Origin: Acidimicrobiaceae bacterium
Lineage (GTDB): Bacteria > Actinomycetota > Acidimicrobiia > Acidimicrobiales > Poriferisodalaceae
Direction of reading: 5' to 3'
Length of the DNA: 64,000 nucleotides
NCBI GenBank assembly: GCA_002705305.1
Contig: PAHW01000002.1
Coordinates: 26,392-90,391 of the forward strand
This document shows positions 13,750 through 44,451 of this stretch, in pieces. Numbering within the stretch: position 1 is the first letter of the stretch; each line of letters starts with the position of its first letter. The translations under genes were made by a program, and so were the position numbers. Below the pieces are notes generated by a model, which did not search any database, was not told the origin of the DNA, and saw only the letters and a program-made list of their open reading frames with translations.

Positions 13750-13885
13750 GTGATTTGTTTTCTGTTACGCAAGTAAAGAAATTGGCTTGGATGAAAGGGT
13801 CAAGTTCCTATTGTGGTCTGAAACAGCGTTGCCCCCCAACACGACGCAGCGACCGGTAATTGATGGTATTCGACGCGACGACGCC

Positions 13886-14407
13886 ATGGTGAGGCAGGAT
13901 CAAAGGGTGAACCAGACCCCAGCTCCCTTCGAGGGACATAGCGACATTGTCCGAAAAGAGTGGATTGACTTCAACGGTCACTTCAACGCCGGGTACTACC
14001 TCGTTTGTTTCGATGACGCCATTGAATCTTGGATGGATTTCATCGGCGTAGGTCGAGCACATCGAGATCGCCATTTCGTCACCACCTTCTCTGCGCAGAA
14101 TCACGTCACGTATCTTCGCGAAGTGCGCGAAGGAGCAAATTTGAGCGTCGCGACGCAACTACTGGGATTCGACCGCAAACGCATTCATGCCTTGCAGGTG
14201 ATGTGGAACACCGATGAAAACTTCGTGGCCGCAACATGCGAGGTCATGTCACTGCACGTATCAGAGCAAACACGCCGCGTCTCTGAGATGCACGATGACG
14301 TCTATGAGCGGTTGTCTCAAGTATGGAACAGTCACAAAAAGCTGGAGGTTCCCCACCAAGTTGGTCAGGTGATGTCTGTTCCGGGATGGCCTGCTTCTGT
14401 GGACTGA
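13886..14407 (+). CDS. Hotdog-fold acyl-CoA thioesterase (4HBT-like)
   Basis: The core (KEWIDFNGHFNAGYYLVCFDDA ... THVTYLREV) resembles thioesterase-superfamily proteins. The ORF track starts at TTG 13787; internal ATG 13886 is preferred but uncertain. Confidence 0.5.
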   Translation: MVRQDQRVNQTPAPFEGHSDIVRKEWIDFNGHFNAGYYLVCFDDAIESWMDFIGVGRAHRDRHFVTTFSAQNHVTYLREVREGANLSVATQLLGFDRKRIHALQVMWNTDENFVAATCEVMSLHVSEQTRRVSEMHDDVYERLSQVWNSHKKLEVPHQVGQVMSVPGWPASVD

Positions 14408-14425: not shown

Positions 14426-15190
14426 ATGAGTCAACGGCTAGAAGGCAAAACGGCGGTTATCACAGGCGGCGGACGGGGGATAGGAAGAGCAATAGCACTG
14501 GCTTACGTTCAAGCGGGAGCAACGTGCATAGTGGCCAGCAGACAATTAGAAGATCTCGAAGCAACAGCGAGGCTCGCACCGCATGGTGCTGTCGAAGCAA
14601 TCGTTTGTGACGTTGCCAGTGACACATCGGTAGCGGCCATGGCTGAATTGGTACTGGGCAAATTCGGTGGCGTCGACATTGTCGTGAATAACGCAGGCGT
14701 CCACGCCGCCGGCAGCTTTTTAGAGATAGACGCGGCAACGTATTCCCGTCTCTACGAAGTCAACGTCGTGGGAATAGTGCGCGTCAGCCAAGCCTTCCTC
14801 GGAGGAATGATTGAGAGAGGCCGAGGGAGCATCGTCAATATCGCCTCTACAGCGGGACTGTTTGAATCCCCGGGACAGGCTCCGTACAACGCTTCAAAAC
14901 ATGGAGCTGTAGGGCTTACCCGTTGTATGGCATTGGAGTTGGCCTCAACAGGGGTGACTTGCAATGCCATATGCCCTGGTTTTGTCGACACACCAATGCT
15001 CGAAGGATTCGCAGATCTCGTCGGAGCGGAAGCTGACGAACTGCGAAAGCGCCTAGCCCAGCGAACCCCCATGGGTCGAATCCTTGACCCAAGCGAAATT
15101 GCCAACCTAGCCGTCTACCTTGGAGGCGATGAATCATCTGGAATGACGGGTCAAACCATGGCGATTAGCAATGGGATGCGGATGGCATAA
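14426..15190 (+). CDS. SDR-family oxidoreductase (FabG-like)
   Basis: Contains TGGGRGIGRAIA, NNAG and the catalytic YNASKHG motif. Confidence 0.85.
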   Translation: MSQRLEGKTAVITGGGRGIGRAIALAYVQAGATCIVASRQLEDLEATARLAPHGAVEAIVCDVASDTSVAAMAELVLGKFGGVDIVVNNAGVHAAGSFLEIDAATYSRLYEVNVVGIVRVSQAFLGGMIERGRGSIVNIASTAGLFESPGQAPYNASKHGAVGLTRCMALELASTGVTCNAICPGFVDTPMLEGFADLVGAEADELRKRLAQRTPMGRILDPSEIANLAVYLGGDESSGMTGQTMAISNGMRMA

Positions 15191-32359: not shown

Positions 32360-33616
32360 CTATCCCTTGGCTCGTCCCGCGTACCCAAACAATTTTCCGG
32401 CCACTTTGCGAATCTGGATCTCCTCTGCGCCTTCGGTGATCCGATAGCGCCTGTGATGTCTGTATATGTGTTCGAAGGGCATGCTTCGGCCGTATCCAAC
32501 TCCACCGCAACTCTGCATCGCTCGGTCTGCGGCGTCGCAACAAAATCTGTTTCCTCGGTAGTTACACATGGCCACCCGATCAGTTATCTCCATGTGGTCG
32601 ACTCCCTCGTCCATCTCCCAAGCTGTTTTCCAGATCAACGCTCGGATCATTTCAGCTTCCGTGTACAACTCGGCTAAGGGAAACTGGATCGCCTGGTTTT
32701 GGGAGAGCGGTTTTCCGAAGGTGGTGCGACCATTTACATAGTCAACGGCGACGTCAATGCAATGAAGGCCTGCACCTACTGAAGACGCGGCTTGTCGGAT
32801 CCGATTCTCATGAACAAACAGCTGAGCAGTTTGAAGTCCTCTAGCTTCCTCTCCCAAGATGTCGTCATTGTGAATACGAACGTCGGTTAGGCGGACATGG
32901 GCATGATCTGTTGGCATGTTGAAGGTCCACATGAATTCTTCAACCTTGAATCCCGGTGAATCCACCGGAACGATGAAGCATGTGATCCCATGACCCTCGC
33001 CTGGATTTCCGGACGTCCTCGCAAAGATGTAGTCATGAGTCGCGTGATGAAGTCCTGTGTTCCAGTATTTCTCGCCATTTATCACCCATTCGTCACCGTC
33101 GCGCACGGCCGTGGTCTCCATCCAAGTGGCATCGGAGCCGTGAAGAGGCTCAGTAAGCCCAAACCCGATACGCGCTGTCCCTTCGAGCATTTTGGGAATC
33201 CAATATTCTTTCTGATCTTCTGAACCGAATTTTTCCATCATCAGTACGGTCGGAAAATTACCGATGACGGAGTTTTCGTTCTGAAGGTCGTTGTGAAGGC
33301 CGAGCCCTTTGCGAGCCAAATGTTCTCTGACTATGGCCATCCCAAGATTTGTACCGTTCTGACCGCCGAAACGTTTTGGAAGATGCCAACGCAAGAAACC
33401 CGCGGCGTCGGCCTCGCTACGCATCCGGCCAAGGAGTTGCTCCCACTCGGCGTTGGGTAGGCCATCCCTATGCCAGTCAGTGCGCGAGTCTTCGCGTCGA
33501 TGATCAAAGAATCGTATGTTGTCGTTTTCGTTCTCGATCGGCTTTATTACGTCCTCGATGAACTGGTCAAGATCATCGAGCAATGTTTGTATGTCAGAGG
33601 GAATCGTGAAGTCCAT
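32360..33616 (-). CDS. Acyl-CoA dehydrogenase (FadE2 / ACAD10-11-like type)
   Basis: GFGLTEPLHGSDAT and C-terminal ITEGAEEIQIRKV. ATG 33616 (MDFTIPSDIQ) is preferred over the ORF-track start at 33646. Confidence 0.85.
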   Translation of the reverse strand: MDFTIPSDIQTLLDDLDQFIEDVIKPIENENDNIRFFDHRREDSRTDWHRDGLPNAEWEQLLGRMRSEADAAGFLRWHLPKRFGGQNGTNLGMAIVREHLARKGLGLHNDLQNENSVIGNFPTVLMMEKFGSEDQKEYWIPKMLEGTARIGFGLTEPLHGSDATWMETTAVRDGDEWVINGEKYWNTGLHHATHDYIFARTSGNPGEGHGITCFIVPVDSPGFKVEEFMWTFNMPTDHAHVRLTDVRIHNDDILGEEARGLQTAQLFVHENRIRQAASSVGAGLHCIDVAVDYVNGRTTFGKPLSQNQAIQFPLAELYTEAEMIRALIWKTAWEMDEGVDHMEITDRVAMCNYRGNRFCCDAADRAMQSCGGVGYGRSMPFEHIYRHHRRYRITEGAEEIQIRKVAGKLFGYAGRAKG

Positions 33617-33644
33617 AGGCAGCGAACGTATACGGTCGGACCTC

Positions 33645-34250
33645 ATGGTGTTGCCAATTGTTGTTTGGTCGGACTTTCTGTGACCCTGGTGTCATTTAGC
33701 GCGAGCCCGGGCGGCTCGTCTTGAACAACGACACGACGTAGCTATTTCGTGGTTGCCATACGAGTTACATCCCGAGATTCCCGAGGGCGGTGTTCCTAAC
33801 CATCGTCAATTCTCGGCGCTGCGCACGATTGCTGAAGAACTCCAAGTAACCCTGGTGCCGCCAACAACTTTTTATCCAACAAGGCGCGCCCATCAGGCAG
33901 CCCTCGTGGTCGAGCATGCCTCCCCTGAAGAAGCTGGCATCTATCACGATCGGCTATATGCCTCGATTTGGGAAAATCATCGAGACATCGAAGATCCTGA
34001 GGTGTTAGCCCAGCTAGCGGCTGACCTAACCGTCCCTTCAGGCCTTATCGAGCGGGTTGTTACCAACAACGAATTGTGGCCAGCTGTGTTGTCGTCAATG
34101 CAACGAGCCCACGAATGGGGAGCGACGGGCACCCCGAGTTGGGTAATAGACAACAAACTGATGGTGCCCGGTTTACAAGACGACGATTTTTTTGATCGCG
34201 TCATTGAACGGCTGAGCAATATCAAAAGCGGCGAAGAGAACTCCAAATAA
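33645..34250 (+). CDS. DsbA/FrnE-like thiol:disulfide oxidoreductase, candidate selenoprotein (UxxC; TGA 33681..33683 read as Sec)
   Basis: The ORF-track piece 33753..34250 is DsbA/FrnE-like but lacks the active site. The same frame upstream reads MVLPIVVWSDFL-TGA-PWCHLARARAARLEQRHDVAISWLPYELHPE. This restores the I.VWSD..CPWC signature with TGA at the first Cys position. Confidence 0.7.
33701..33719 (+). promoter_or_regulatory. Candidate bacterial SECIS hairpin for the DsbA-like gene
   Basis: GCGAGCC-CGGGC-GGCUCGU: 6 Watson-Crick pairs plus one G-U pair, with a 5-nt G-rich loop. The loop starts 24 nt after the UGA. A possible lower stem pairs GUGUC (33689..33693) with GACAC (33730..33734). 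Confidence 0.55.
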
Positions 34251-34284
34251 TCATCTGAGTGTCGCCTCGGGTACTGTCCTGAGT

Positions 34285-35535
34285 ATGCAGCCAACCTATT
34301 CACGAGACGCAGAGGAATACCGCGACAAGATCCAAGACTTCATTACTGAGCACCTACCCGAGGACTGGGAAGGTATTGGGTCCTTAACGGGAGACGCTAA
34401 AGCTGAGTTCGTTCGTCAATGGAGGCAGATTCTTAGCGAAAATCATTTTCTCGCGACTATGTGGCCCACCGACTACGGCGGCCCTGGGTTGACAGTTAAC
34501 GAGAATGTGATTATCGCCGAGGAATTCACGAAAGCCGGGTTGCCGACCGGTGGTTCCAACGATGGTTTCGGTATCGGCATGGTTGGCAACACCCTTATCG
34601 AATGGGGTACTGAGGAACAAAAGAAGCACTATCTCCCACGAATTCTTGATGGCGAAGATATTTGGTGTCAGGGGTATTCGGAACCGGGAGCGGGTTCGGA
34701 CTTAGCCAATCTTGGCTGTCGAGCTGAACTTGACGGCGACGAATGGGTTCTGAACGGACAAAAAATCTGGACATCGAGCGGACATTTGGCGAATTGGATA
34801 TTTGTCCTTGGTCGAACCGCTCCCGATGACGCGAAACATCAAGGCATTACATTTTTCTTGTGTCCCATGAACCAGGAAGGAATTGAGGTTCGGCCCATCG
34901 TTAACATCGCGGGCCACAGTCATTTCAACGAAGTGTTTTTCTCGAACGCGAGGGTGCCGAAGGGCAACGTCGTAGGTCAAGTAAATGGCGGTTGGGCCGT
35001 CGCCATGACGTTGCTGGGCTACGAGCGTGGGTTTGGGGCCACGACGACCTACTTCCGTTATCGATCTGAGTTGGATCGTTTGGTTGAAATGGCCCAACAA
35101 CGCGGTCGGACAGAGGACCCGAACATTCGTCAACGTTTGGCCTGGTGTCATAGCAAAGTCGAAATCATGCGATGGCTCGGCCAACAAGTGTTGACGTCTT
35201 TCTTGAATGGTGAACCGCCAGGGCCCAAGAGTTCAATAGGAAAACTCAATTGGAGCGAATATCACCGCCACGTCACGGAGTTGTCAATCGACATTCTTGG
35301 AGCCGAAGCGATGGTGGTCGAGGGAGATGATGCTCTCGCCGCTGGATTAGGAGCCGCAGACGCAGGCACGCCCAACACGACTTCAGCTTGGATCAATAGT
35401 TTTCTATCAGCGAGATCCGGAACGATCTACGCGGGTACTAGCCAAGTGCAGCGCAACATCATTGGCGAACGAATCTTAGGGTTGCCTAAAGAGCCGCGAG
35501 CTGATGAAGGTCCCTGGAACGAGACGCTTCGCTGA
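34285..35535 (+). CDS. Acyl-CoA dehydrogenase
   Basis: 416 aa with CQGYSEPGAGSDLA and C-terminal GTSQVQRNIIGERILGLPKEP. Confidence 0.85.
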   Translation: MQPTYSRDAEEYRDKIQDFITEHLPEDWEGIGSLTGDAKAEFVRQWRQILSENHFLATMWPTDYGGPGLTVNENVIIAEEFTKAGLPTGGSNDGFGIGMVGNTLIEWGTEEQKKHYLPRILDGEDIWCQGYSEPGAGSDLANLGCRAELDGDEWVLNGQKIWTSSGHLANWIFVLGRTAPDDAKHQGITFFLCPMNQEGIEVRPIVNIAGHSHFNEVFFSNARVPKGNVVGQVNGGWAVAMTLLGYERGFGATTTYFRYRSELDRLVEMAQQRGRTEDPNIRQRLAWCHSKVEIMRWLGQQVLTSFLNGEPPGPKSSIGKLNWSEYHRHVTELSIDILGAEAMVVEGDDALAAGLGAADAGTPNTTSAWINSFLSARSGTIYAGTSQVQRNIIGERILGLPKEPRADEGPWNETLR

Positions 35536-35536
35536 A

Positions 35537-36121
35537 GTGTTGGTAGGTCTGTGCGGTGGATCATGTGCGGGGAAGACAACGTTGGCGCGCGCGCTTTTAG
35601 CGGAACGTCCTGACGCCGCATTGCTCGAATTTGATGACTATTACTATGACCTGTCGGAAGTCCCCATTGAGGAACGGGCAAAGGTCAACTACGACCACCC
35701 TGACGCCATAGACGTTCAACTTTTGGTGACCCACATGGATGAGTTAGCTGCGGGACGTGCGGTGGAGGTGCCTGACTACGATTTCGCTACCCACACTCGT
35801 CCCGGTGGCGTACATCGTGTGGAGGCCTCCTCACTCGTCATCGTCGACGGCCTATTGCTGCTGGCAGTTCCCGAATGTCGAGAACGACTAGATCTAAAAG
35901 TTTTTGTAGATGCTCCCCGCGAAGTGCGTCTTGCTCGGCGACTTGAGAAAGACGTGAGGGACAGAGGACGTGACCGCGATGGCGTAATTAGACAGTTCGG
36001 TGACTCAGTAGAGCCAATGCACCAAACCCTTGTTTCGCCTAGTTCGGAGTTCGCGGACTTGTGCTTTACCTACCCTTGGGATGTACAACACGCAACACAG
36101 GCCATCCTTGGGTACCTCTAG
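35537..36121 (+). CDS. udk: Uridine kinase
   Basis: P-loop GGSCAGKTT, then FDDYYYD, NYDHPDAID, VPDYDF..H.R and FVDAPREVRLARRLEKDVRDRGRD. GTG 35537 lies 1 nt after the upstream stop and is preferred; ATG 35504 (ORF track) is the alternative. Confidence 0.7.
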   Translation: MLVGLCGGSCAGKTTLARALLAERPDAALLEFDDYYYDLSEVPIEERAKVNYDHPDAIDVQLLVTHMDELAAGRAVEVPDYDFATHTRPGGVHRVEASSLVIVDGLLLLAVPECRERLDLKVFVDAPREVRLARRLEKDVRDRGRDRDGVIRQFGDSVEPMHQTLVSPSSEFADLCFTYPWDVQHATQAILGYL

Positions 36122-36145
36122 CTGCCGTCGAAGGGTCCGAGATCG

Positions 36146-36556
36146 CTATTCACCGATAAATTCGACCCAGTTACCATCAGGGTCTTCAACCATTCCCACG
36201 ACTACGCCGGGACGTACTTCTCTTCTGTCCCAGATAATCGGCGTGCCAACTGCGGCACACGCATCAAGAGCCGACTGAACACTGGGAACGGACAGAGTGA
36301 AGTAACGCATCCCTGAAGCGCCCATCATCCCTCCGCTAGCTCCAGGCGCTACCTCTTTCGTGGGAACCACGATCTTAAGCAAGCTCTCGTTGGCCCAAAC
36401 GCGATGCATCGCGGCGACCCCTAAAGCCTCCATGTTCAAGGTGGCTTCAAACTCAAGCCCAATTACGTCGCGGTAAAACTCCAGCATCTCGTCGCCGTTT
36501 GTCGTCACAATTCCGAGATCAAATCCACCCTTAGTGAAACTGTTAGCCACCATCAC
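36146..36556 (-). CDS. VOC (glyoxalase/bleomycin-resistance/dioxygenase) family protein
   Basis: 136 aa with paired beta-alpha-beta-beta-beta module-like halves and a C-terminal DPDGNWVEF motif. Confidence 0.7.
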   Translation of the reverse strand: MMVANSFTKGGFDLGIVTTNGDEMLEFYRDVIGLEFEATLNMEALGVAAMHRVWANESLLKIVVPTKEVAPGASGGMMGASGMRYFTLSVPSVQSALDACAAVGTPIIWDRREVRPGVVVGMVEDPDGNWVEFIGE

Positions 36557-36576
36557 TCCTAACTACTCAAGGTTCC

Positions 36577-37374
36577 TCAGTCGTAGCTCACGCCGAGACC
36601 AGCTCGAGCATCAGTCTGGATACCATAGTTAGGAATGGGATAACGCAAGCCGTTTCGTGCGAGAAATTCCATTCCCTCAACTGCGACAAGTAAATCTTCG
36701 GGGCGAAGTGCCATCAGAAGCTCGTCTTCCATCACTCCGCCGTAACGTCTTTCAGCGAAGCATGGAATTGACAAACTTGGCTCTCCGGTACTTAAGGCCC
36801 GCCCCCAACTGTCCGCGCAAGCTGACTCCCCAACGCATCCCCAGTCCAGTTTCTTGTAGCCGCGCCATTGCAGACCATTGATCAGCAGAATCATTTGAGC
36901 GGGAGTCGCGTAAACGAGACAAATATCAGGTGGATCAAGCCGTTTTGAAGATAAAGGTGAAACAGCCATGGCCGCATAAGTTCCGAAAGGCACGCAGTCC
37001 ATCGCTTCTTGGTGTGCCGAACTGTCATCAAGGGTTTCGAACCAGACTCCCTGCATGCGCTCGCCAGACAACCAATCTTCGTCCTGTGGGTGAAGGCCTA
37101 TGACGGCTCCGCATTGATCGCCGACCAGGTCAGCACGGGTGATACCGACGGTCCAGTTCAGTCGTGATGCCATTCCGACGATTTGGTCCGTTGTGTGGAT
37201 GTCGTCGGGTCGGCGAATCCGAGGCACTGACTCCATCTCGTCGACCGTCGCAAACAGCTTCATTCCGATCGGGGTAGTGCGGATTCGGAGGAGAGCCTGA
37301 AGGCGAGCTAGTAAATCATCCCAATCCATCTGTCCTGTTCGCAGATGCACCGGCTGTTCTTCAGTTTCACTCAT
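36577..37374 (-). CDS. DUF169-like protein
   Basis: The start is set at ATG 37374 (MSETEEQPV...). Pattern IGMKLF ... DCVPFG ... CADSWG recalled as DUF169. The ORF-track N-terminal extension overlaps the divergent gene. Confidence 0.5.
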   Translation of the reverse strand: MSETEEQPVHLRTGQMDWDDLLARLQALLRIRTTPIGMKLFATVDEMESVPRIRRPDDIHTTDQIVGMASRLNWTVGITRADLVGDQCGAVIGLHPQDEDWLSGERMQGVWFETLDDSSAHQEAMDCVPFGTYAAMAVSPLSSKRLDPPDICLVYATPAQMILLINGLQWRGYKKLDWGCVGESACADSWGRALSTGEPSLSIPCFAERRYGGVMEDELLMALRPEDLLVAVEGMEFLARNGLRYPIPNYGIQTDARAGLGVSYD

Positions 37375-37406
37375 GGGTCCCCCTGGCTTAGGCAGCCAAC
37401 CTACCG

Positions 37407-37431
37407 CGCGCATCGCGTGGCTCGATGCGCG
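37407..37431. promoter_or_regulatory. Perfect 9-bp inverted repeat (candidate operator or 5'-UTR hairpin)
   Basis: CGCGCATCG-N7-CGATGCGCG in the 70-nt divergent spacer between the starts at 37374 (-) and 37445 (+). Confidence 0.3.
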
Positions 37432-37444
37432 ACAGAATGAAGCA

Positions 37445-38293
37445 ATGAAAACTGTCATGCTTCTGCACCCAGGAGAAATGGGGGCCTCGATCGGTTCGGC
37501 CATCGTCGCGAATGGGTACACCGTGTTGTGGGTTCCCGAAGGTCGAAGCCAAGCAACGAGGCAACGAGCAGCAGCAGCCGGATTTGAGGAAGCCGAGTTA
37601 CTTGACGCTCTGAGTCGAGTTGACATCGTCATTTCCGTAGTGCCGCCCGGCGCCGCAATTCAAGTTGCTCAACAGGTGGCCGACGGCGGTTTCGAGGGGA
37701 CGTATGTGGATATGAACGCCATTTCTCCTCGTAGCGCCAGTCAGATAGCTACTGCATTTTCCGATTATGTCGACGGTGGCATAGTCGGACCGCCCGCCAG
37801 GGAGACCGGAACAACGCGACTCGCGTTGAGTGGCCCCAAAACTGATGAAATCAAAGCGCTCTTCGCTGGTTCGTTCATAGAAGTAGTTGATTTAGGTATC
37901 GAAATTGGCACGGCCTCCGCCTTCAAGGTTGGTTTTGCAGCCTGGACAAAAGGGTCCGGAGCGCTCTTGCTCTTGATATGTGCCTATGCGCGGTCCGCAG
38001 GGATCGAAAACGAATTGTTTGAAGAATGGGAACGACGAGGCATGACGCAGAAAGCGCAGTCCATTCGCGCAGCCGAGCAAATGGCCCCAAAGAGTTGGCG
38101 CTTTGGTGACGAAATGCGCCAAATATCGGACGCTTTGGAAGATGCGGGATTGGGTATCGGGTTCTTTTTACACGCAGGTGAAACTTTTGACAGACTCGCT
38201 CACATAAACACTGAGTCCGATCGAAAGCTCAGCTTGGAAGAAGTGACGCGAGAGCTGCTTGCGGGAAGGAGTTTGCGTGACCCATTCGATTAG
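37445..38293 (+). CDS. NAD(P)-binding 6-phosphogluconate-dehydrogenase-like oxidoreductase (DUF1932-type C-terminus)
   Basis: The start is set at ATG 37445 (MKTVMLLHPGEMGASIG, a Rossmann-like N-terminus). The C-terminal helical domain resembles beta-hydroxyacid dehydrogenase-like proteins. Confidence 0.55.
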   Translation: MKTVMLLHPGEMGASIGSAIVANGYTVLWVPEGRSQATRQRAAAAGFEEAELLDALSRVDIVISVVPPGAAIQVAQQVADGGFEGTYVDMNAISPRSASQIATAFSDYVDGGIVGPPARETGTTRLALSGPKTDEIKALFAGSFIEVVDLGIEIGTASAFKVGFAAWTKGSGALLLLICAYARSAGIENELFEEWERRGMTQKAQSIRAAEQMAPKSWRFGDEMRQISDALEDAGLGIGFFLHAGETFDRLAHINTESDRKLSLEEVTRELLAGRSLRDPFD

Positions 38294-38354
38294 GGTGACG
38301 CCTCGCGTCGCTAAGCGACAGATATTGCCACTGTGACCAGTTGAGGAGATCCCA

Positions 38355-39137
38355 ATGGCTGACGGCCTTCGTACTGAAATTCACGGCAACGTGGGAATGG
38401 TCATCATGGACCGCCCCCCACACAACTTTTTGAATTTTCGACAAATTCATGACATAGCTGATGCGCTCGGGGAAATGGAAAATGACATGTCCATCCGCTG
38501 CGCGGTGCTGGCCGCAGAAGGCCGATCATTTTGTGCCGGCGCAGACTTCGCCGGTGACGGAGTAGGTGGAGGTGACGACGAAGTCGTCGGCGGTGACGCG
38601 ACGCTCGCCCTTTACCAAGGGTCAGGACGTCTATTCGACGTAACACTTCCCATAGTTGGGGCCATACAGGGTCCAGCGGTTGGCGGAGGGTTGGGCTTAG
38701 CCATGGTGCCTGATATCAGAATCACGTGTCCCGATGCGCGTTTCTCGGCCAACTTTGCGGCGCTGGGAATCCACCAAGGATTCGGTATGAGTGTCACGCT
38801 CCCAGAACTTCTAGGTCCCTCAAGAGCAGCGCAGGTTCTCTACAGCGCAAAGAGATATAAGGGCGAAGAAGCGGTCCTTATTGGACTCGCCGATGAATGT
38901 GTTCCTTCGTCAGAAGTGAGGGACCGTGCCCTAGAAGTTGCTTCAGACATAGCGGCGAACGCCCCGCTGGCCCTCCGTGCAATCAAGTCGACGCTAAGGC
39001 TCGGTCTTGGTGACCGTGTACGAGAAATCACACAGCGCGAAGCTCAGCTCCAAGCTGAATTGTCCGCTAGTTCTGATGCCAAAGAGGGGATTGCTTCAGT
39101 ATCAGAACGACGACCAGGCAATTTCACCGGACAGTAA
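38355..39137 (+). CDS. Enoyl-CoA hydratase/isomerase (crotonase fold)
   Basis: FCAGADF and GPAVGGGLG oxyanion-hole segments. Paralogue of 10673..11473. Confidence 0.85.
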   Translation: MADGLRTEIHGNVGMVIMDRPPHNFLNFRQIHDIADALGEMENDMSIRCAVLAAEGRSFCAGADFAGDGVGGGDDEVVGGDATLALYQGSGRLFDVTLPIVGAIQGPAVGGGLGLAMVPDIRITCPDARFSANFAALGIHQGFGMSVTLPELLGPSRAAQVLYSAKRYKGEEAVLIGLADECVPSSEVRDRALEVASDIAANAPLALRAIKSTLRLGLGDRVREITQREAQLQAELSASSDAKEGIASVSERRPGNFTGQ

Positions 39138-39187
39138 GCACCGCCGAATTCGTCGCAAAGAACGAACCGCAGAGTCACGAGAACAAG

Positions 39188-40060
39188 ATGCGAATTGTGG
39201 TCACCGGCGTCAGCGGTCTTATCGGATCGGCGTTGGCTACCGAATTAGGAATTCAGGGCCACGAAGTGATAGGGGTCTCTCGTTCTCCCTCAGCCGGATC
39301 GGTCGGCTGGGAAGAAGTAACTGCGACCCTCATGAACGACGTTGACGCAGTAGTCAACTTAGCGGGAGAAACAATCGCGGGCCGATGGACCAGCCAAAAG
39401 AAAAGGCGGATAACGCGGAGCCGTTTAGAGGCCGCCGAATCAGTTAGTAACGCCATACGCGATTCGGATCGACCTCCATCTGTGCTGATCCAAGCTTCAG
39501 CGTCGGGCTACTACGGAAGTCGCGGAAACGAAGTTCTTGACGAGCGCTCAAGCCCTGGCTCTGGTTTTTTAGCTGATCTTTGCCGCGAATGGGAAGCGAC
39601 CGCGGAGACCGTTCGCACTGTCAACACAAGGCTCGTACTAGCAAGATTTTCGGTTGTCCTCGCAGCAGAAGGTGGGGCTCTCTCGCCACTCAAGACTTTA
39701 ACTAGCGTGGGTCTTGGTGGTCCCTTGGGGCGAGGTAGACAATGGTGGAGTTGGATATCGCTTCATGACACAGTGCGCTCCTTGTTTCATCTTCTCGAAA
39801 CCGATATTTCTGGACCGGTAAATGTCAGTTCCGAAACACCGGTGCAACAGCGAGATTTCTCGAAAACGTTGAGCAAGGTTTTGCGTCGCCCCTGCTTAGT
39901 GCCGACTCCTGAAATAGCGCTTAAGGCGGTGCTTGGCGAAATGGGTCAAACACTCTTGCTGGACTCCACGCGTCTCCGCCCGTCCGTGCTAACTACCAGC
40001 GGATTCAAATTCGAAGAGGGCGACCTCGAAAGCGCACTGAGACGGATCTTTAATACTTAA
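39188..40060 (+). CDS. TIGR01777-like NAD-dependent epimerase/dehydratase family protein (SDR39U1-like, DUF1731 C-terminus)
   Basis: MRIVVTGVSGLIGSAL N-terminus, with GRQWWSWISLHD in the C-terminal half. Confidence 0.7.
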   Translation: MRIVVTGVSGLIGSALATELGIQGHEVIGVSRSPSAGSVGWEEVTATLMNDVDAVVNLAGETIAGRWTSQKKRRITRSRLEAAESVSNAIRDSDRPPSVLIQASASGYYGSRGNEVLDERSSPGSGFLADLCREWEATAETVRTVNTRLVLARFSVVLAAEGGALSPLKTLTSVGLGGPLGRGRQWWSWISLHDTVRSLFHLLETDISGPVNVSSETPVQQRDFSKTLSKVLRRPCLVPTPEIALKAVLGEMGQTLLLDSTRLRPSVLTTSGFKFEEGDLESALRRIFNT

Positions 40061-40098
40061 GCTTCAACTCGTCCCCACGATTAGAAAGAGCCTCGACC

Positions 40099-41043
40099 TT
40101 GACACTTCAACCCGATACGCAGGCGTTCATTGAAATGGTTGAGGCTGCCAATGCCGACGCGCCACCCCGATCTGAGCAGTCACCTGAAGATGCGCGAAAC
40201 GGCTACCAGGCATTGGCTCATATTCTTGGACCGGGTCCAGAACCCGGCGGAGGGATAGAAGATTTTCAAATTCCAGGACCGACTGGACAGACACCAGTGC
40301 GGATCTACCGACCACAGGGAGAGGGACCTCATCCAACGCTGACCTTCTTTCACGGCGGAGGGTTTGTCGTAGGCGACTTGGAAACTCACGACAAGGAATG
40401 TCGGCTGCTTTGCGAGAAGGCCAACTGTCTCGTCTTGGCCGTTGACTACCGATTAGCCCCAGAGGCGCCCTTCCCGGCCGCGGTCGAAGACGCTTGGTCA
40501 GCGGTCCAATGGGTTGTCGATCATGGCGCCGAAATAGGCATCGATACCACCCGTGTAGCAGTAGGAGGTGATTCGGCCGGTGGCAATCTCGCCGCTGTCA
40601 TGGCCCTGATGGCTCGCGACGCTGGAATCGACCTGAGACTGCAAATGTTGGTCTACCCAGCCACCGATGCCTCCAAACAGTACGACTCATTCGTTGAAAA
40701 TAAAGACGGTCCGCTGCTGACGGTGGAAGTCATTGACTGGTTCTGGTCGCACTACGTCGGTCATCGAACTGCCGACGAAACGCGAGGTGACTGGCGGTTC
40801 TCTCCCGCATTGGCCGCTAGCCACGCCGGTGTTGCCTCCGCATATGTGGCAACGTGTTCAGCTGACCCGCTTCGCGATGAGGGAAACGCATACGCAGAAC
40901 TTCTCGCGGCGGCAAATGTGCCAGTGCATCATTCAACGTTCGAGGGTGAGCCGCACGTCCTATTTCAAATGTTTAATGTTTGCGATGGCGCAAAAACACT
41001 CATTGAAGAGTGCGCAGCAGCCCTCACGGCGGCATTCAAATGA
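40099..41043 (+). CDS. Alpha/beta hydrolase, hormone-sensitive-lipase-type esterase
   Basis: HGGGF oxyanion motif and GDSAGGNLA nucleophile elbow. TTG start. The stop overlaps the next start (ATGA). Confidence 0.8.
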   Translation: MTLQPDTQAFIEMVEAANADAPPRSEQSPEDARNGYQALAHILGPGPEPGGGIEDFQIPGPTGQTPVRIYRPQGEGPHPTLTFFHGGGFVVGDLETHDKECRLLCEKANCLVLAVDYRLAPEAPFPAAVEDAWSAVQWVVDHGAEIGIDTTRVAVGGDSAGGNLAAVMALMARDAGIDLRLQMLVYPATDASKQYDSFVENKDGPLLTVEVIDWFWSHYVGHRTADETRGDWRFSPALAASHAGVASAYVATCSADPLRDEGNAYAELLAAANVPVHHSTFEGEPHVLFQMFNVCDGAKTLIEECAAALTAAFK

Positions 41044-43250
41044 GGACCACAGTACGGCGAGACCGCTGGGGGATTGCCCATGTTGAGTCACCTAACGTAG
41101 CCCAGGCCTTCGAAGCCCAGGGTTGGATAGCGGCTTCAGACCGGATTTGGCAGATGGACGCCGATCGATTCAAAGCACTTGGGAGATGGGCCGAGGTAGT
41201 TGGACCTGGAGCCCTGAAGGAGGACGCATTTTTTCGACGGATCGGACTTGGGAGCATTGCTCAAGCCGACTGGGGTGCGCTGAACTCTGAGACCCAACAG
41301 ATGACCGAAGCCTATGCCAACGGTGTCAACCGATGGTTGGAGGAAAACCCTGAGGGACTGCCCGCTGAATACGAACACCACCCCGCAGCCCCGGAACCGT
41401 GGGAGCCGTGGCACTGTCTAGCGGTCTACAAAGTCCGACATATATTCATGGGGACCTTGCATCGGAAACTTTGGCGGGGGCACCTCTTGGCAAAGGCGGG
41501 ACCTGAAGTCGTCGCGGCGATGATGGGCGACCCAAACCAAGCATCGGCGATCGCTCCAGGGAATGGAACCCCGCTGAACTTACTCTCGGAGGTGTCTGAC
41601 CTCCTTGATTCTCAATCGGAACTGCTTAAAGCCTTAGTGGACATTGACGGTGGATCGAACTCTTGGGCCGTCGACGGAACACGAACCATTTCAGGTAAAC
41701 CACTGTTGGCAGGCGATCCTCACCGAGGTATCGAATTTCCTAACGTCTACCACCAATTTCATCTGGAATGCCCCGAATTCAACGTGATTGGGCTTGCTTT
41801 TCCCGGCGTTCCCGCTTTCCCCCATTTTGGCCACAATGATCAGGTTGCTTGGTGCATCACGCATGGCATGGCCGACGACACCGACCTCTTCGTTGAAACA
41901 GACAGCCTTGAGGCAATTGATTGGGTTCCAGAGGTAGTTCGTGTCCGCGGTGACGACGATGTCGAAGTTTTTTGTGGCTCAACAGATCGAGGGCCGGTGG
42001 TCATTGGTGATCCGGCCGACGGCATGGCCCTATCGGTTGCCTGGACGGGCATGATCGGTGGTGACACTACCTTCGAAGCCCTTCAACCAATGTTGAGTGC
42101 CTCAAGTTGTGAAGAACTCGAAAATAGCGTTCGACCATGGGTCATACCGGTTAACAATCTGCTCACCGCCGACCGCGATGGAAACATATCTTTCAAGATC
42201 AGGGGACGAGTGATCGAACGCCCACCCGCTAATCGCTGGTGTCCCGTTCCCGGCGACTCCGAACACGGTTGGTCTGGGTTGCGAACTGTTCCCTTCGATG
42301 AACTTCCGGGTGTACAAAATCCCAGCCGCGGATTTTTAGTGACAGCCAACAACAGAATCAGTGATACCCATCCCTTCATTTCGTTAGATTTTGCCGGTCC
42401 CGCTCGATATGACCGGATCGTTGAACTTCTCGAGGAAGTCCCTGAAGCCTCCGTCGAAGACATGCGACGAATTCATGGAGATGTGCTTTCACATAAGGCG
42501 CGTTCCATAGTCCCGCTCTTAATTTCCCAGACCTCTCAAGCCACCCATCGACGAAGCAAATGGCTTCGCGACGTACTCTCAACCTGGGACTTTCAAGTGA
42601 CCGAAAGCTCGGTCGAAGCTTTGTTGTACGCAGTCATGCGACGCAGATGGTCTGAAAGCGTTGGGGAAAGATTAGGAGTATCAATCGCTGAACTTGGGGC
42701 GCCAGGATGGCCATCACCCGAAGCGGCCAGCCGAATGCTCTACGAGGCAGCGACCGCGCTGCTCGATGGTGACGCATGGAAGTGCCTACCAGGACTCGAA
42801 ACAGACGAGGACCTCGATCAAGCGTTGTCGGCGTGCATCGACGAGACTTTGAATGAACTTGAACTCCGACTAGGACAAGACATCTCTCAGTGGTCGTGGG
42901 GGCAGTTACACAGAATGGCATCACCACATCCGTTAGCTTCGGCGCTCGAAGGGGCAAGAGAGCTCCACCCACCCTTGGATAGCTGTCCCGGCGACGGGGA
43001 CACGGTGAGGTGCGGTTCGGTGATGCCCGAAACTGGGGAACGAGCGGTTGCTGCATCGGTAGCGCGCTACGTTTTCGATCTAGCCGACTGGGACTCCTCA
43101 GGTTGGGTCGTGCCTCACGGGGTGTCGGGTGTACGCGGCAGCGGACACGACCTCGATCAGCGAGCGATCTGGCTCGACTGCGATCTAATACCGATGTCGT
43201 TCAGCAAAGATGCCGTATCGGCTATTACTCGCGAAGAATTTGAAATATGA
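41040..43250 (+). CDS. Penicillin acylase-family Ntn hydrolase (no signal peptide)
   Basis: RDRWGIAHV alpha-subunit N-terminus and the GGSNSWAV processing/nucleophile site. The start at ATG 41040 is coupled to the esterase stop. Confidence 0.8.
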   Translation: MRTTVRRDRWGIAHVESPNVAQAFEAQGWIAASDRIWQMDADRFKALGRWAEVVGPGALKEDAFFRRIGLGSIAQADWGALNSETQQMTEAYANGVNRWLEENPEGLPAEYEHHPAAPEPWEPWHCLAVYKVRHIFMGTLHRKLWRGHLLAKAGPEVVAAMMGDPNQASAIAPGNGTPLNLLSEVSDLLDSQSELLKALVDIDGGSNSWAVDGTRTISGKPLLAGDPHRGIEFPNVYHQFHLECPEFNVIGLAFPGVPAFPHFGHNDQVAWCITHGMADDTDLFVETDSLEAIDWVPEVVRVRGDDDVEVFCGSTDRGPVVIGDPADGMALSVAWTGMIGGDTTFEALQPMLSASSCEELENSVRPWVIPVNNLLTADRDGNISFKIRGRVIERPPANRWCPVPGDSEHGWSGLRTVPFDELPGVQNPSRGFLVTANNRISDTHPFISLDFAGPARYDRIVELLEEVPEASVEDMRRIHGDVLSHKARSIVPLLISQTSQATHRRSKWLRDVLSTWDFQVTESSVEALLYAVMRRRWSESVGERLGVSIAELGAPGWPSPEAASRMLYEAATALLDGDAWKCLPGLETDEDLDQALSACIDETLNELELRLGQDISQWSWGQLHRMASPHPLASALEGARELHPPLDSCPGDGDTVRCGSVMPETGERAVAASVARYVFDLADWDSSGWVVPHGVSGVRGSGHDLDQRAIWLDCDLIPMSFSKDAVSAITREEFEI

Positions 43251-43321
43251 CAGCGAGCGATCTAAGACCTATAGGTGTGATTCCGAATTTTCAACTCACG
43301 AGACACGAGTAGCTTCATGCC

Positions 43322-44416
43322 ATGGCGGTAACCAACCACGACAGCGAACTGGACATCGACCCGATGTTCATCTCTACTCACAACGACCTATGGCTGCGAC
43401 TTGGTAGCTGCGGAACCTGGTGGACCGGCCCCCAACGCGTAGCCGCAATGTCGGAAGTCCGCGCGGCATTCGAATGTGACCTATGTTCCGAGCGTTCTGA
43501 AGCGCTGAGCCCGTTAATGATTGAAGGAGTTCATGACTCGGTATCCGAGCTTCCTCCAGAAGCGGTGGATTTGGTTCATAGATTGACGACCGATCCGGGT
43601 CGCCTAACCCAACCGTGGGCGAACACAATCATCGACGTTTTAGGCGAAGAACGCTATGTGGAAATCGTCACAGTCGTTTGTGTCCAATATGTCATAGAGA
43701 GCTTCGCCCGAAATCTTGGACTACCACTCCCAGACCTGCCTGAGGCGGGCGACGGAATTCCCAATCACGTGCGACCAACCGATGTCGGAGACGTCGGCGC
43801 ATGGGTCAGTCAAACGGTTGACAAAAAATTGGCAAATGTCTCCAGAGCCGCATCTCTAGTTCCCGACACAGAAGTGTTATGGCGGGACCTGGTGCAATGT
43901 CACTACAGCCGCGGACCACAATTTGCCGAACTGGTCTGGGACCGAGCACTCGCTAGACCCCAAGTCGAATTGTTGGCATCCACCGTTTCTGCACTTAATG
44001 AGTGCTTCTACTGAACTGCGGCCCATGTATCGCTGCTCCGTGCGAGCAGCGAAGCCAGCGACACCGAGGTCGCAATTGAGCAACTGGAAGATGGAGCTCA
44101 GGTCGAACACGGCTCCGCCCTCGTGCGCTACGCGGAATCAGCAGTTCAACGAGACAGTGATCTAACTGAATCTCGTACCCGCCTGTTGCGACTTATCGGG
44201 CCACAAGCGCTCGTCGAAGCTTCGGCGACAGTTTCGGCTTTCGAGGGGCTTAACCGCATTGCCGACGCAACAGGCATCCAGCTCGATGCCGGATTAGCGG
44301 ACGAATCTGCTGATTTCAGAAACGATCTAGGGATTAACTCTTACGCGGGTGCGGTGAACACCAAATCAAACGGATCTCCCGATCGAGCCGACAGCGTCCT
44401 TGGAATTTTTCGCTGA
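43322..44416 (+). CDS. AhpD / carboxymuconolactone-decarboxylase (CMD)-like protein, candidate selenoprotein (CxxU; TGA 44012..44014 read as Sec)
   Basis: ORFs 43322..44014 and 44123..44416 are in the same frame, with no other stop between them. Read-through gives ...LLASTVSALNECFY-TGA-TAAHVSLLRASS..., the AhpD CxxCxxxH motif with TGA at the second Cys. Confidence 0.7.
44030..44052 (+). promoter_or_regulatory. Candidate bacterial SECIS hairpin for the AhpD-like gene
   Basis: UCGCUGCUC-CGUGC-GAGCAGCGA: a perfect 9-bp stem with a 5-nt loop containing GU. The loop starts 24 nt after the UGA. Confidence 0.6.
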
Positions 44417-44451
44417 AGGTCACATAAAGACCCTCGGGTTGGCGCGGCCCG

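What the first reader, a model, noticed from the sequence alone, without database searches (positions are those of the whole stretch)
33681..44052. The two UGA-hairpin units share the same geometry, suggesting a lineage-specific SECIS pattern and Sec usage in an apparently actinobacterial genome
In both candidates the apical loop is 5 nt, of the form C-G-N-G-C (CGGGC and CGUGC). In both, the loop begins after exactly 24 intervening nucleotides from the UGA (33684..33707 and 44015..44038). Each loop is closed by a GC-rich stem of 7 or 9 bp. Two independent genes in different redox families, 10 kb apart, show the same UGA-to-loop spacing. This is hard to explain by chance nonsense mutations and matches the general bacterial SECIS model of a G-containing apical loop at a constrained distance from UGA. 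The neighbouring gene content suggests Actinomycetota, a phylum where the Sec-decoding trait is thought to be sparse. A two-member selenoproteome sample in 64 kb would therefore be notable.
Basis: partly seen in the sequence, partly recalled or inferred. Interest (0 to 1): 0.7.

Follow-up and report, generated by a model that had tools for sequence, protein, structure and literature searches.

The report
Two selenoprotein genes with ordinary SECIS hairpins
Two redox-enzyme genes in this marine Acidimicrobiales (actinobacterial) fragment really do encode selenocysteine at an in-frame UGA followed by a conserved RNA hairpin, but both belong to known selenoprotein families, and their matching hairpin geometry fits the general bacterial rule rather than a lineage-specific one.

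Summary
UGA 33681-33683 lies in frame in a DsbA/FrnE-like gene (WSDFL-U-PWCH). UGA 44012-44014 lies in frame in an AhpD-related gene (NECFY-U-TAAH). Each is followed, after exactly 24 nt, by a 5-nt loop (CGGGC, CGUGC) closed by a 7- or 9-bp stem.

Both are genuine selenocysteine sites:
- The UGA replaces the catalytic Cys of Cys-containing homologues.
- It is conserved in 81/81 AhpD-related and 15/15 DsbA-like orthologous loci.
- Sequence beyond the UGA evolves as coding sequence.
- The hairpins keep pairing through wobble-position changes, and synonymous sites are frozen only inside the hairpin.

Both families are already known. The AhpD gene scores 375 bits against NCBIfam NF041238 "AhpD_rel_CFYUT (seleno)protein". 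DsbA UxxC selenoproteins were described from Sargasso Sea and Global Ocean Sampling (GOS) data.

The "lineage-specific SECIS" idea is not supported:
- The AhpD hairpin geometry is identical in five or more other phyla.
- An Acidimicrobiales contig carrying the AhpD gene also has a selenocysteine formate dehydrogenase with 18-nt spacing and a GGUCU loop.
- The loops fit the universal N-G-[G/U]-N-N consensus.
- A covariance model of one hairpin scores the other at chance level.

No Sec machinery lies in the window, so that part could not be tested.

The parts
33645..34250 (+). DsbA/FrnE-like thiol-disulfide oxidoreductase selenoprotein gene (201 codons; Sec at codon 13; motif WSDFL-U-PWC-H)
   Evidence: Translation shows a single internal TGA. 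Pfam PF01323 DSBA, E=2.3e-26, spans residues 5-187 and so crosses the UGA. Cys homologues P0041-P0047 have WSDYLCPWCY at the same place. Most database homologues are N-terminally truncated, with gene calls starting just after the UGA.
33681..33683 (+). Sec-encoding UGA of the DsbA-like gene (first position of the UxxC redox motif)
   Evidence: TGA is present in all 15 distinct orthologous loci examined. It aligns with the first Cys of CPWC in Cys homologues.
33696..33724 (+). SECIS hairpin of the DsbA-like gene. Upper stem 33701-33707/33713-33719, apical loop CGGGC 33708-33712, possible lower stem 33696-33699/33721-33724.
   Evidence: Minimum-free-energy fold, -13.0 kcal/mol. 94% of cells are paired across 15 orthologues. 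Pair 24:36 is GC/GU/AU at two wobble positions. The +24 spacing is the same in all 15.
43322..44416 (+). AhpD-related (carboxymuconolactone decarboxylase (CMD) fold) selenoprotein gene, family AhpD_rel_CFYUT (364 codons; Sec at codon 231; CxxU motif C-F-Y-U)
   Evidence: Translation. NCBIfam NF041238 scores 374.8 bits against a cutoff of 175, over residues 16-342. Pfam CMD covers residues 203-271 across the UGA. Database homologues are cut at 218-240 aa, ending in NECFY. Substitutions downstream of the UGA fall 21:14:72 at codon positions 1:2:3, like the upstream 37:19:109, with no stops in 133 codons in 12 relatives.
44012..44014 (+). Sec-encoding UGA of the AhpD-related gene
   Evidence: TGA is present at the homologous codon in 81 of 81 sites, i.e. 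80 species genomes plus the window.
44030..44052 (+). SECIS hairpin of the AhpD-related gene: 9-bp stem 44030-44038/44044-44052, apical loop CGUGC 44039-44043
   Evidence: Fold of -17.1 kcal/mol, z=-4.2. 87% of cells are paired across 73 distinct orthologues, with wobble-position covariation at pairs 21:39 and 24:36 and one compensatory change at 27:33. Third-codon-position entropy is 0.52 bit inside the hairpin against 1.61 outside.

Best explanation
These are two ordinary bacterial selenoprotein genes from an uncultured marine Acidimicrobiales bacterium. One is a DsbA/FrnE-like oxidoreductase in which selenocysteine replaces the nucleophilic Cys of CPWC. The other is an AhpD-related protein of the curated family AhpD_rel_CFYUT, with a C-F-Y-U redox motif.

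In each gene a coding-region hairpin (a bacterial SECIS) presents an apical loop N-G-[G/U]-G-N 24 nt after the UGA. The inferred mechanism is the standard one. SelB-GTP carrying Sec-tRNA(Sec) binds the loop. When the ribosome places UGA in the A site, the tethered complex delivers Sec in competition with release factor 2, and translation then continues to the true stop (TAA 34248-34250; TGA 44414-44416).

Shown here: in-frame UGA at the catalytic Cys position, its conservation, coding constraint on both sides, and RNA-level constraint on the hairpins.

Inferred: SelB binding and Sec insertion, and the presence of selA/B/C/D elsewhere in the genome.

The identical geometry of the two hairpins is best read as two independent solutions that both sit in the middle of the general bSECIS envelope. 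In each, the loop is built from an Arg (CGN) plus Ala/Val (GYN) codon pair at codons +9/+10. Each geometry is inherited within its own protein family. It is not a lineage-specific rule.
For: - In-frame UGAs and motifs.
- Family models span the UGA: PF01323 and PF02627; NF041238 at 374.8 bits against a cutoff of 175.
- Sec/Cys pairing with CPWC homologues.
- UGA conserved 81/81 for AhpD-related and 15/15 for DsbA-like.
- Codon-position substitution pattern downstream equals upstream.
- Hairpins appear in the MFE folds.
- Pairing is kept at 87% and 94% of cells, with wobble covariation, against 23-59% when partners are slid.
- Synonymous-site entropy drops to 0.52 bit only inside the hairpin.
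- The Arg third position in the loop is U or G in all 73 sequences, as the consensus G[G|U] demands.
- TGA is used as the ordinary stop by 24 other window genes, so there is no genome-wide recoding.
- The families are published as selenoproteins: AhpD-like CxxU and DsbA UxxC (PMC1088965, PMC2398784).
- bSECIS consensus (PMC13188914).
- Sec machinery in the sister order Actinomarinales (bioRxiv 10.64898/2026.04.03.716425).
Against: - No selA, selB, selD or tRNA-Sec in the 64-kb window or in 1.4 Mb of related flanks. The Sec-decoding trait of this genome is therefore inferred, not shown.
- No Rfam SECIS model matches.
- The DsbA hairpin alone is not thermodynamically exceptional (z=-1.3).
- Shuffle controls on related sequences can exaggerate covariation, and the stems also encode conserved peptides (LLRAS; ARARA), so part of the conservation is protein-level.
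Confidence: 0.9

Rival explanations
1. Lineage-specific SECIS rule. The SelB of this actinobacterial lineage requires a 5-nt C-G-N-G-C loop placed exactly 24 nt after UGA, so all its selenoprotein genes share this geometry.
For: - Both window genes share spacing, loop length and the C-G-N-G-C form.
- The geometry is invariant in all Acidimicrobiales orthologues of both families.
- SelB of the related Actinomarina is reported as divergent (bioRxiv 10.64898/2026.04.03.716425).
Against: - The same AhpD geometry occurs in at least five other phyla.
- Acidimicrobiales contig L030 carries a formate dehydrogenase alpha (FdhA)-type Sec gene with +18 spacing and a GGUCU loop next to the +24 AhpD gene.
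- Within the AhpD family the loop also reads CGUGU, CGUGA, AGUGU and GGUGC.
- No third family with the pattern was found in 1.43 Mb.
- The cross-family covariance-model score is at chance, 5.9 bits, E=8.
- The loops fit the universal consensus (PMC13188914).
Confidence: 0.07
2. The UGAs are true stops: nonsense mutations, or naturally split or short genes. The hairpins would then be chance structures or terminators, and no selenocysteine is inserted.
For: - Gene callers treat both as stops, so nearly all database entries are truncated.
- No Sec machinery is seen in the window.
- Loose hairpins are common, following 11.5% of codons.
Against: - A nonsense mutation would not persist at the same codon in 81/81 and 15/15 species-level genomes.
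- The downstream 133 codons stay open and evolve under purifying selection.
- Domain models cross the UGA.
- The UGA sits exactly on the catalytic Cys.
- Hairpin synonymous sites are frozen and covary.
Confidence: 0.02
3. UGA is read as a standard amino acid (Trp, Gly or Cys) by genome-wide or local recoding, not as Sec.
For: Nothing specific. It cannot be strictly excluded without the tRNA set.
Against: - 24 window genes end at TGA at positions consistent with their domain models.
- In-frame TGAs are confined to two redox-motif positions, each followed by a constrained hairpin.
- The family is curated as a selenoprotein.
Confidence: 0.01

Closest known systems
NCBIfam NF041238, AhpD_rel_CFYUT, 'alkylhydroperoxidase-related (seleno)protein' (within the AhpD-like / CMD-domain CxxU selenoproteins of Zhang & Gladyshev)
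   Same: Full-length match well above the curated cutoff, the same C-F-Y-U-T motif, Sec at the CxxU position of the CMD/AhpD fold, and the same downstream hairpin as in every orthologue examined.
   Different: Nothing of substance. This copy is from a marine Acidimicrobiales lineage, 80-81% identical to the nearest species-level genomes. The N-terminal ~200 residues have no Pfam domain.
DsbA-like selenoproteins (PF01323, UxxC; 'DsbA 1' of the Global Ocean Sampling (GOS) survey, 'DsbA-like protein form 1')
   Same: DSBA thioredoxin-fold domain. Sec replaces the first Cys of CPWC. Marine origin. SECIS immediately downstream.
   Different: No curated NCBIfam equivalog matched; the best hit was a below-cutoff match to an unrelated thioredoxin-like selenolipoprotein model. 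The Sec lies only 12 codons from the start. A sister clade has U-P-W-A without the resolving Cys.
Bacterial SECIS consensus model (bSECISearch model; E. coli fdhF SECIS as archetype)
   Same: Hairpin in the coding sequence right after UGA. Small apical loop with G followed by G/U at loop positions 2-3. Spacing within 16-37 nt. Stem within 4-16 bp. MFE below -7.5 kcal/mol.
   Different: Spacing is 24 nt against 18 nt in fdhF-type elements. No bulged U equivalent to fdhF U17 is evident. SelB binding is untested.

Membership tests
Bacterial SECIS (consensus model as summarised in PMC13188914) | Stem-loop located immediately downstream of an in-frame UGA inside the coding sequence | tested here: met
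Bacterial SECIS (consensus model as summarised in PMC13188914) | Apical loop 3-9 nt and upper stem 4-16 bp | tested here: met
   5-nt loops; 7-bp and 9-bp stems.
Bacterial SECIS (consensus model as summarised in PMC13188914) | G in one of the first two loop positions, usually followed by G or U | tested here: met
   CGGGC and CGUGC. Across 73 AhpD orthologues, loop position 2 is always G and position 3 is always U or G. The same holds in 15 DsbA orthologues.
Bacterial SECIS (consensus model as summarised in PMC13188914) | 16-37 nt between UGA and the apical loop | tested here: met
   24 nt in both.
Bacterial SECIS (consensus model as summarised in PMC13188914) | MFE <= -7.5 kcal/mol | tested here: met
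   -13.0 and -17.1 kcal/mol for the isolated hairpins.
Bacterial SECIS (consensus model as summarised in PMC13188914) | Binds SelB and directs Sec insertion | not testable with these tools
   Needs biochemistry or a reporter assay. Only evolutionary constraint is shown.
Rfam SECIS families | Match to a curated covariance model | tested here: not met
   No hit at gathering threshold in the window. No SECIS hit up to E=10 in either region. Rfam represents bacterial SECIS elements poorly, so this does not argue against function.
NF041238 AhpD_rel_CFYUT (seleno)protein | HMM score above the curated cutoff over the full length | tested here: met
   374.8 bits against 175; residues 16-342 on profile positions 5-356 of 357.
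NF041238 AhpD_rel_CFYUT (seleno)protein | C-F-Y-U-T motif with UGA at the U position | tested here: met
   NECFY-UGA-TAAH. TGA in 81/81 orthologous sites.
DsbA-like selenoprotein (PF01323, UxxC) | DSBA domain above the Pfam gathering score | tested here: met
   93.2 bits against 25.6.
DsbA-like selenoprotein (PF01323, UxxC) | Sec aligned with the N-terminal Cys of the CxxC active site of Cys homologues | tested here: met
   WSDFL-U-PWCH against WSDYL-C-PWCY in P0041-P0047.
Sec-decoding trait of the host genome | selA, selB, selD and tRNA-Sec (selC) present | tested here: inconclusive
   None in the 64-kb window. No tRNA-Sec or SelD in the related flanks, though the SelD query was a sequence recalled from memory. 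The rest of the genome is not available. The literature reports the machinery in Actinomarina, order Actinomarinales, of the same class.
Proposed 'lineage-specific +24/CGNGC SECIS class' | Geometry restricted to, and general within, the lineage | tested here: not met
   The same geometry occurs in other phyla. A different geometry (+18, GGUCU) occurs in an Acidimicrobiales FdhA gene on the same contig as an AhpD gene. No third family has it. The covariance-model cross-score is at chance.

The most novel reading that the evidence does not exclude
The in-phase coincidence is a convergent optimum for a divergent Acidimicrobiia SelB. In both genes codon +9 is Arg CGN and supplies loop positions 1-3, and codon +10 is GYN and supplies positions 4-5, at exactly +24. 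Non-FDH selenoprotein genes recruited in this class would then be selected toward a '+24 / CG[U/G]G' SECIS. The non-actinobacterial AhpD_rel copies would have acquired gene and SECIS together by horizontal transfer from Acidimicrobiia.
Probability: 0.08. Interest if true: 0.45.

Novelty: new member of a known kind. Interest (0 to 1): 0.25.

Why it matters
The practical value is in annotation. In nearly all public records both genes are called as truncated proteins: the AhpD-related gene is cut at the UGA, and the DsbA-like gene is started after it. As a result the redox-active residue is missing from the databases.

The comparison also shows that selenocysteine use is widespread in marine and other Acidimicrobiales. 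553 species-level genomes carry the AhpD-related gene, always with UGA in the 80 examined. This group's selenium biology is barely mentioned in the open literature.

It does not reveal a new recoding mechanism or a new class of SECIS.

Tried and rejected
- Rfam, at gathering threshold on the window and permissive on both sites: no SECIS hit.
- ARAGORN on the window and on all loci: no tRNA-Sec.
- tblastn of a recalled E. coli SelD sequence against 1.4 Mb of loci: nothing. The query came from memory, so this is only a weak negative.
- Pfam annotation of about 60 window ORFs: no selA/selB/selD.
- Exact-protein look-up of the window's penicillin amidase to locate the source contig: failed, probably because the start codon is called differently.
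- Other in-frame-UGA candidates in the window. The same-frame ORF pair 13787..14407 / 14426..15190 turned out to be two separate genes, a thioesterase and a short-chain dehydrogenase (SDR). The pair 51056../52733.. is separated by a double TGA. No further Sec gene was found in the window.
- ORF-context hairpin scans of the loci were very noisy in these GC-rich genomes. Only the L030 FdhA gene, plus one unexplored Binatia/Thermodesulfobacteriota candidate, stood out.
- Genes next to L030 fdhA, sized like selB/selA/selD, turned out to be a prolyl-tRNA-synthetase-like gene, a serine-hydroxymethyltransferase-like gene and one of unknown function.
- A covariance model of the AhpD SECIS used to look for the DsbA SECIS or further elements in the window: chance-level scores only.
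Full report
**1. The observation**

- Site 1: TGA at 33681-33683 is followed by 24 nt. Then comes the loop CGGGC (33708-33712), closed by a 7-bp stem (33701-33707 with 33713-19, the outermost pair G-U).
- Site 2: TGA at 44012-44014 is followed by 24 nt. Then comes the loop CGTGC (44039-44043), closed by a perfect 9-bp stem (44030-44038 with 44044-44052).

ViennaRNA places both hairpins in the minimum-free-energy structure. The isolated hairpins fold at -13.0 and -17.1 kcal/mol. Only the second is clearly better than shuffles (z -4.2 against -1.3).

Both TGAs are in frame. Reading 33645..34250 gives a 201-codon protein with one internal stop, and 43322..44416 gives a 364-codon protein with one internal stop.

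**2. More than chance?**

Among 19,287 in-frame codons of the window's genes, a 5-nt loop starting exactly 24 nt downstream and closed by at least 7 consecutive pairs follows only 20 codons. Two of these are the two in-frame UGAs, and they are the only ones with a CGNGC loop.

A loosely defined hairpin (any spacing 15-35, loop 3-8, stem >=7) follows 11.5% of codons. It also follows 3 of the 24 ordinary terminal TGAs. A hairpin as such proves little, so the case rests on comparative evidence.

**3. What the genes are**

Gene 1 is a DsbA/FrnE-like thioredoxin-fold protein.
- Pfam PF01323 matches at E=2.3e-26 over residues 5-187, i.e. across the UGA.
- Its motif WSDFL-U-PWCH aligns with WSDYL-C-PWCY in full-length Cys homologues (P0041-P0047). 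The UGA therefore replaces the nucleophilic Cys of CxxC.

Gene 2 matches the NCBIfam equivalog NF041238 [quoted passage not shown].
- The score is 374.8 bits against a cutoff of 175, over residues 16-342.
- The family name spells out the window's motif, C-F-Y-U-T.
- Pfam CMD (PF02627) also bridges the UGA.

In the protein database nearly all relatives are mis-called:
- DsbA-like entries start just after the UGA.
- AhpD-related entries stop at 218-240 aa, ending in NECFY.
- One NCBI entry is already named "(seleno)protein [Actinomycetota bacterium]".

**4. Comparative test of Sec decoding**

A scan of one genome per GTDB species found 553 genomes encoding a relative of gene 2. The best 80 loci were retrieved.
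- At the homologous codon, all 81 sites (80 loci plus the window) have TGA. None has a Cys codon.
- Against twelve relatives, the 133 codons after the UGA contain no stops. They accumulate substitutions at codon positions 1:2:3 as 21:14:72, the same pattern as the 230 codons before it (37:19:109). The region is therefore translated.
- For gene 1, ten syntenic Acidimicrobiales loci and four loci from a more distant clade all have TGA. They also have a conserved 12-codon N-terminus, M-[VA]-LPI-[VI]-VWSD-[FY]-L.

Genome-wide reassignment of UGA is excluded, because 24 other genes of the window end at TGA.

**5. Comparative test of the hairpins**

In 73 distinct AhpD-related sequences the 9-bp stem is formed in 87% of cells. 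When the 3' partners are slid by 1-3 columns the figure drops to 23-59%.

The variable pairs are wobble positions of codons on both arms:

| Pair | Pair types |
|---|---|
| 21:39 | GC 47, GU 11, AU 6, CG 1 |
| 24:36 | GC 56, GU 14, AU 1 |
| 27:33 | CG 72, UA 1 (one compensatory change) |

Third-codon-position entropy averages 0.52 bit inside the hairpin (positions 21-39). It is 1.44 in the spacer and 1.61 in 48 flanking codons. This is the signature of an RNA constraint superimposed on coding.

The four-fold degenerate third base of the loop Arg codon is U or G in all 73 sequences, never A or C.

In 15 DsbA-like sequences the 7-bp stem is formed in 94% of cells. Pair 24:36 is GC 5, GU 5, AU 3.

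Caveat: the stems also encode conserved peptides (LLRAS; ARARA), and shuffle controls overstate significance for related sequences. The synonymous-site argument is the stronger one.

**6. Mechanism**

The anatomy fits the published bacterial SECIS consensus point by point (PMC13188914):

| Consensus requirement | Observed |
|---|---|
| Loop 3-9 nt | 5 nt |
| Upper stem 4-16 bp | 7 and 9 bp |
| G in the first two loop positions, followed by G or U | CGG.., CGU.. |
| Spacing 16-37 nt | 24 nt |
| MFE <= -7.5 kcal/mol | -13.0 and -17.1 |

The most likely mechanism is therefore the canonical one. SelB-GTP-Sec-tRNA(Sec) docks on the apical loop and delivers Sec when UGA reaches the A site. That step is inferred, not shown.

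No selA, selB, selD or tRNA-Sec lies in the window or in the related flanks. The rest of the genome could not be reached.

Indirect support:
- A 2026 preprint reports selA, selC, selD and a divergent selB in all 84 complete Actinomarina genomes, order Actinomarinales, of the same class (bioRxiv 10.64898/2026.04.03.716425).
- One Acidimicrobiales contig (L030) carries a formate dehydrogenase alpha (FdhA)-type gene with UGA at the canonical Sec/Cys position, SCNRT-U-HAPSV. Its best solved-structure matches are FdhF/FDH-H, E=5.7e-156 to 1.8e-128.

**7. Is the shared geometry lineage-specific?**

The evidence says no.
- (a) The AhpD-related hairpin has the same +24 spacing and N-G-[U/G]-G-N loop in genomes labelled Thermoanaerobaculia, Binatia, Myxococcota/Deltaproteobacteria, Thermodesulfobacteriota, Gamma- and Alphaproteobacteria and Limnocylindria. 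The geometry belongs to the gene family. It is locked by the absence of indels between U and the LLR[AV]S peptide.
- (b) Within that family the loop also reads CGUGU (14), CGUGA (6), AGUGU (3), CGGG[CGU] (6) and GGUGC (1). C-G-N-G-C is therefore not required.
- (c) On contig L030 the AhpD gene (+24, CGUGC) coexists with the FdhA gene, whose hairpin sits at +18 with loop GGUCU. From my own recollection, this is the geometry of the E. coli fdhF element.
- (d) A DsbA-like Sec gene in a Defluviicoccus genome has a CGUGC loop at +20.
- (e) Across 1.43 Mb of related DNA, TGA followed by the +24/NG[GU]GN/stem>=6 pattern occurs 95 times. 87 of these are the two families. The remaining 8 have no reading-frame context, which is a chance level comparable with other triplets.
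- (f) A covariance model built from the 73 AhpD hairpins recovers its own site at 73.7 bits. It scores the DsbA site at 5.9 bits (E=8, rank 25 of 32).

What remains is a real but modest coincidence. In both genes codon +9 is Arg (CGN) and codon +10 is Ala/Val (GYN), so the loop is in the same codon phase. The sample of other Sec genes from the lineage is tiny (one FdhA), so a weak preference cannot be excluded. I give it under 10%.

**8. Taxonomy and context**

The window has 54.6% G+C. It encodes mostly acyl-CoA dehydrogenases, enoyl-CoA hydratases, CoA transferases, amidohydrolases and a mycothiol-type MDMPI_N protein.

The closest species-level genomes are marine Acidimicrobiales MAGs: 80-81% identity for gene 2, including MedAcidi and MED-G lineages. 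Near-identical contigs come from marine metagenomes. "Actinomycetota" is therefore right.

The claim that Sec is sparse there is only partly right. Actinobacteria were counted among the selenoprotein-family-rich phyla in 2006 (PMC1794560), although that tally leaned on Symbiobacterium. AhpD-like (CxxU) and DsbA (UxxC, pfam01323) selenoproteins are among the common marine families in the Sargasso Sea and Global Ocean Sampling (GOS) surveys (PMC1088965, PMC2398784).

**9. Verdict**

It is not supported as to a lineage-specific SECIS pattern, and it overstates the novelty. These are new members of known selenoprotein families with canonical bacterial SECIS elements. Interest is low to moderate, mainly for annotation and for documenting Sec use in marine Acidimicrobiales.

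Noticed in passing
window 33645-44416; L009, L013-L016, L018-L022; L087, L090, L094: The two selenoprotein genes are syntenic. They lie about 10 kb apart on the same strand, inside a conserved block: divergent acyl-CoA dehydrogenase (ACAD), DsbA-like, ACAD, uridine-kinase-like, glyoxalase, DUF169, DUF1932, enoyl-CoA hydratase (ECH), epimerase, esterase, penicillin amidase, AhpD-related. The block is seen in at least ten Acidimicrobiales genomes. It largely persists in a clade only ~55% identical, where the AhpD-related gene itself lies beyond the retrieved flank. A functional link is possible but untested.
   Followed up: partly
L087:9929, L090:9929, L093:1092, L094:9929: A divergent clade of the DsbA-like selenoprotein has the motif WSD[YF]L-U-PWA-Y. 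The resolving Cys is replaced by Ala (UxxA), while the same +24 hairpin is kept (loops CGGGU, CGUGU, CGGGC). This implies a different redox chemistry from the UxxC form in the window.
   Followed up: partly
L030:12163-14169 (UGA at 12487): An FdhA/FdhF-type molybdopterin formate dehydrogenase in an Acidimicrobiales MAG. It has an in-frame UGA at the canonical Sec position and a hairpin 18 nt downstream with loop GGUCU. It lies on the same 18-kb contig as an AhpD-related Sec gene.
   Followed up: yes
L073:18650 and L079:15083: In Binatia and Thermodesulfobacteriota genomes, an in-frame TGA sits in the context YSISCMH-UGA-MSVSLALRGEG. There are 304 open codons upstream and 52 downstream, and a hairpin at +21 (loop CGGGGU). 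This may be a further selenoprotein of an unidentified family.
   Followed up: no
window 33644-33647: The longest-ORF start of the minus-strand acyl-CoA dehydrogenase (32360..33646) and the ATG of the DsbA-like gene overlap in a CATG palindrome. Relatives have 418-419 aa ACADs and a ~190-nt intergenic gap, so the ACAD start in the window is probably further downstream.
   Followed up: no
window 16281-18587 (-), hairpin 17779-17805: A 768-aa molybdopterin oxidoreductase with no in-frame UGA, so it is not a Sec enzyme. Inside it lies an 11-bp hairpin with loop AGUGC on the sense strand, preceded by an out-of-frame TGA at +24. It is probably chance.
   Followed up: no
window 44414-44470: The true stop of the AhpD-related gene is also TGA. 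It is followed by a 7-bp hairpin with a 3-nt loop at +25. It lies between convergent genes and looks more like a terminator than a second SECIS. Orthologues end at the same codon.
   Followed up: partly
window 43322-43930 (residues 1-200 of the AhpD-related protein): The N-terminal ~200 residues have no Pfam domain but are well conserved (e.g. HR-[VLI]-x-[TS]-D-[PS]-GRL). The marine clade has a CxxC (C-D-L-C) that is replaced by N-x-L-D in other Acidimicrobiales.
   Followed up: no
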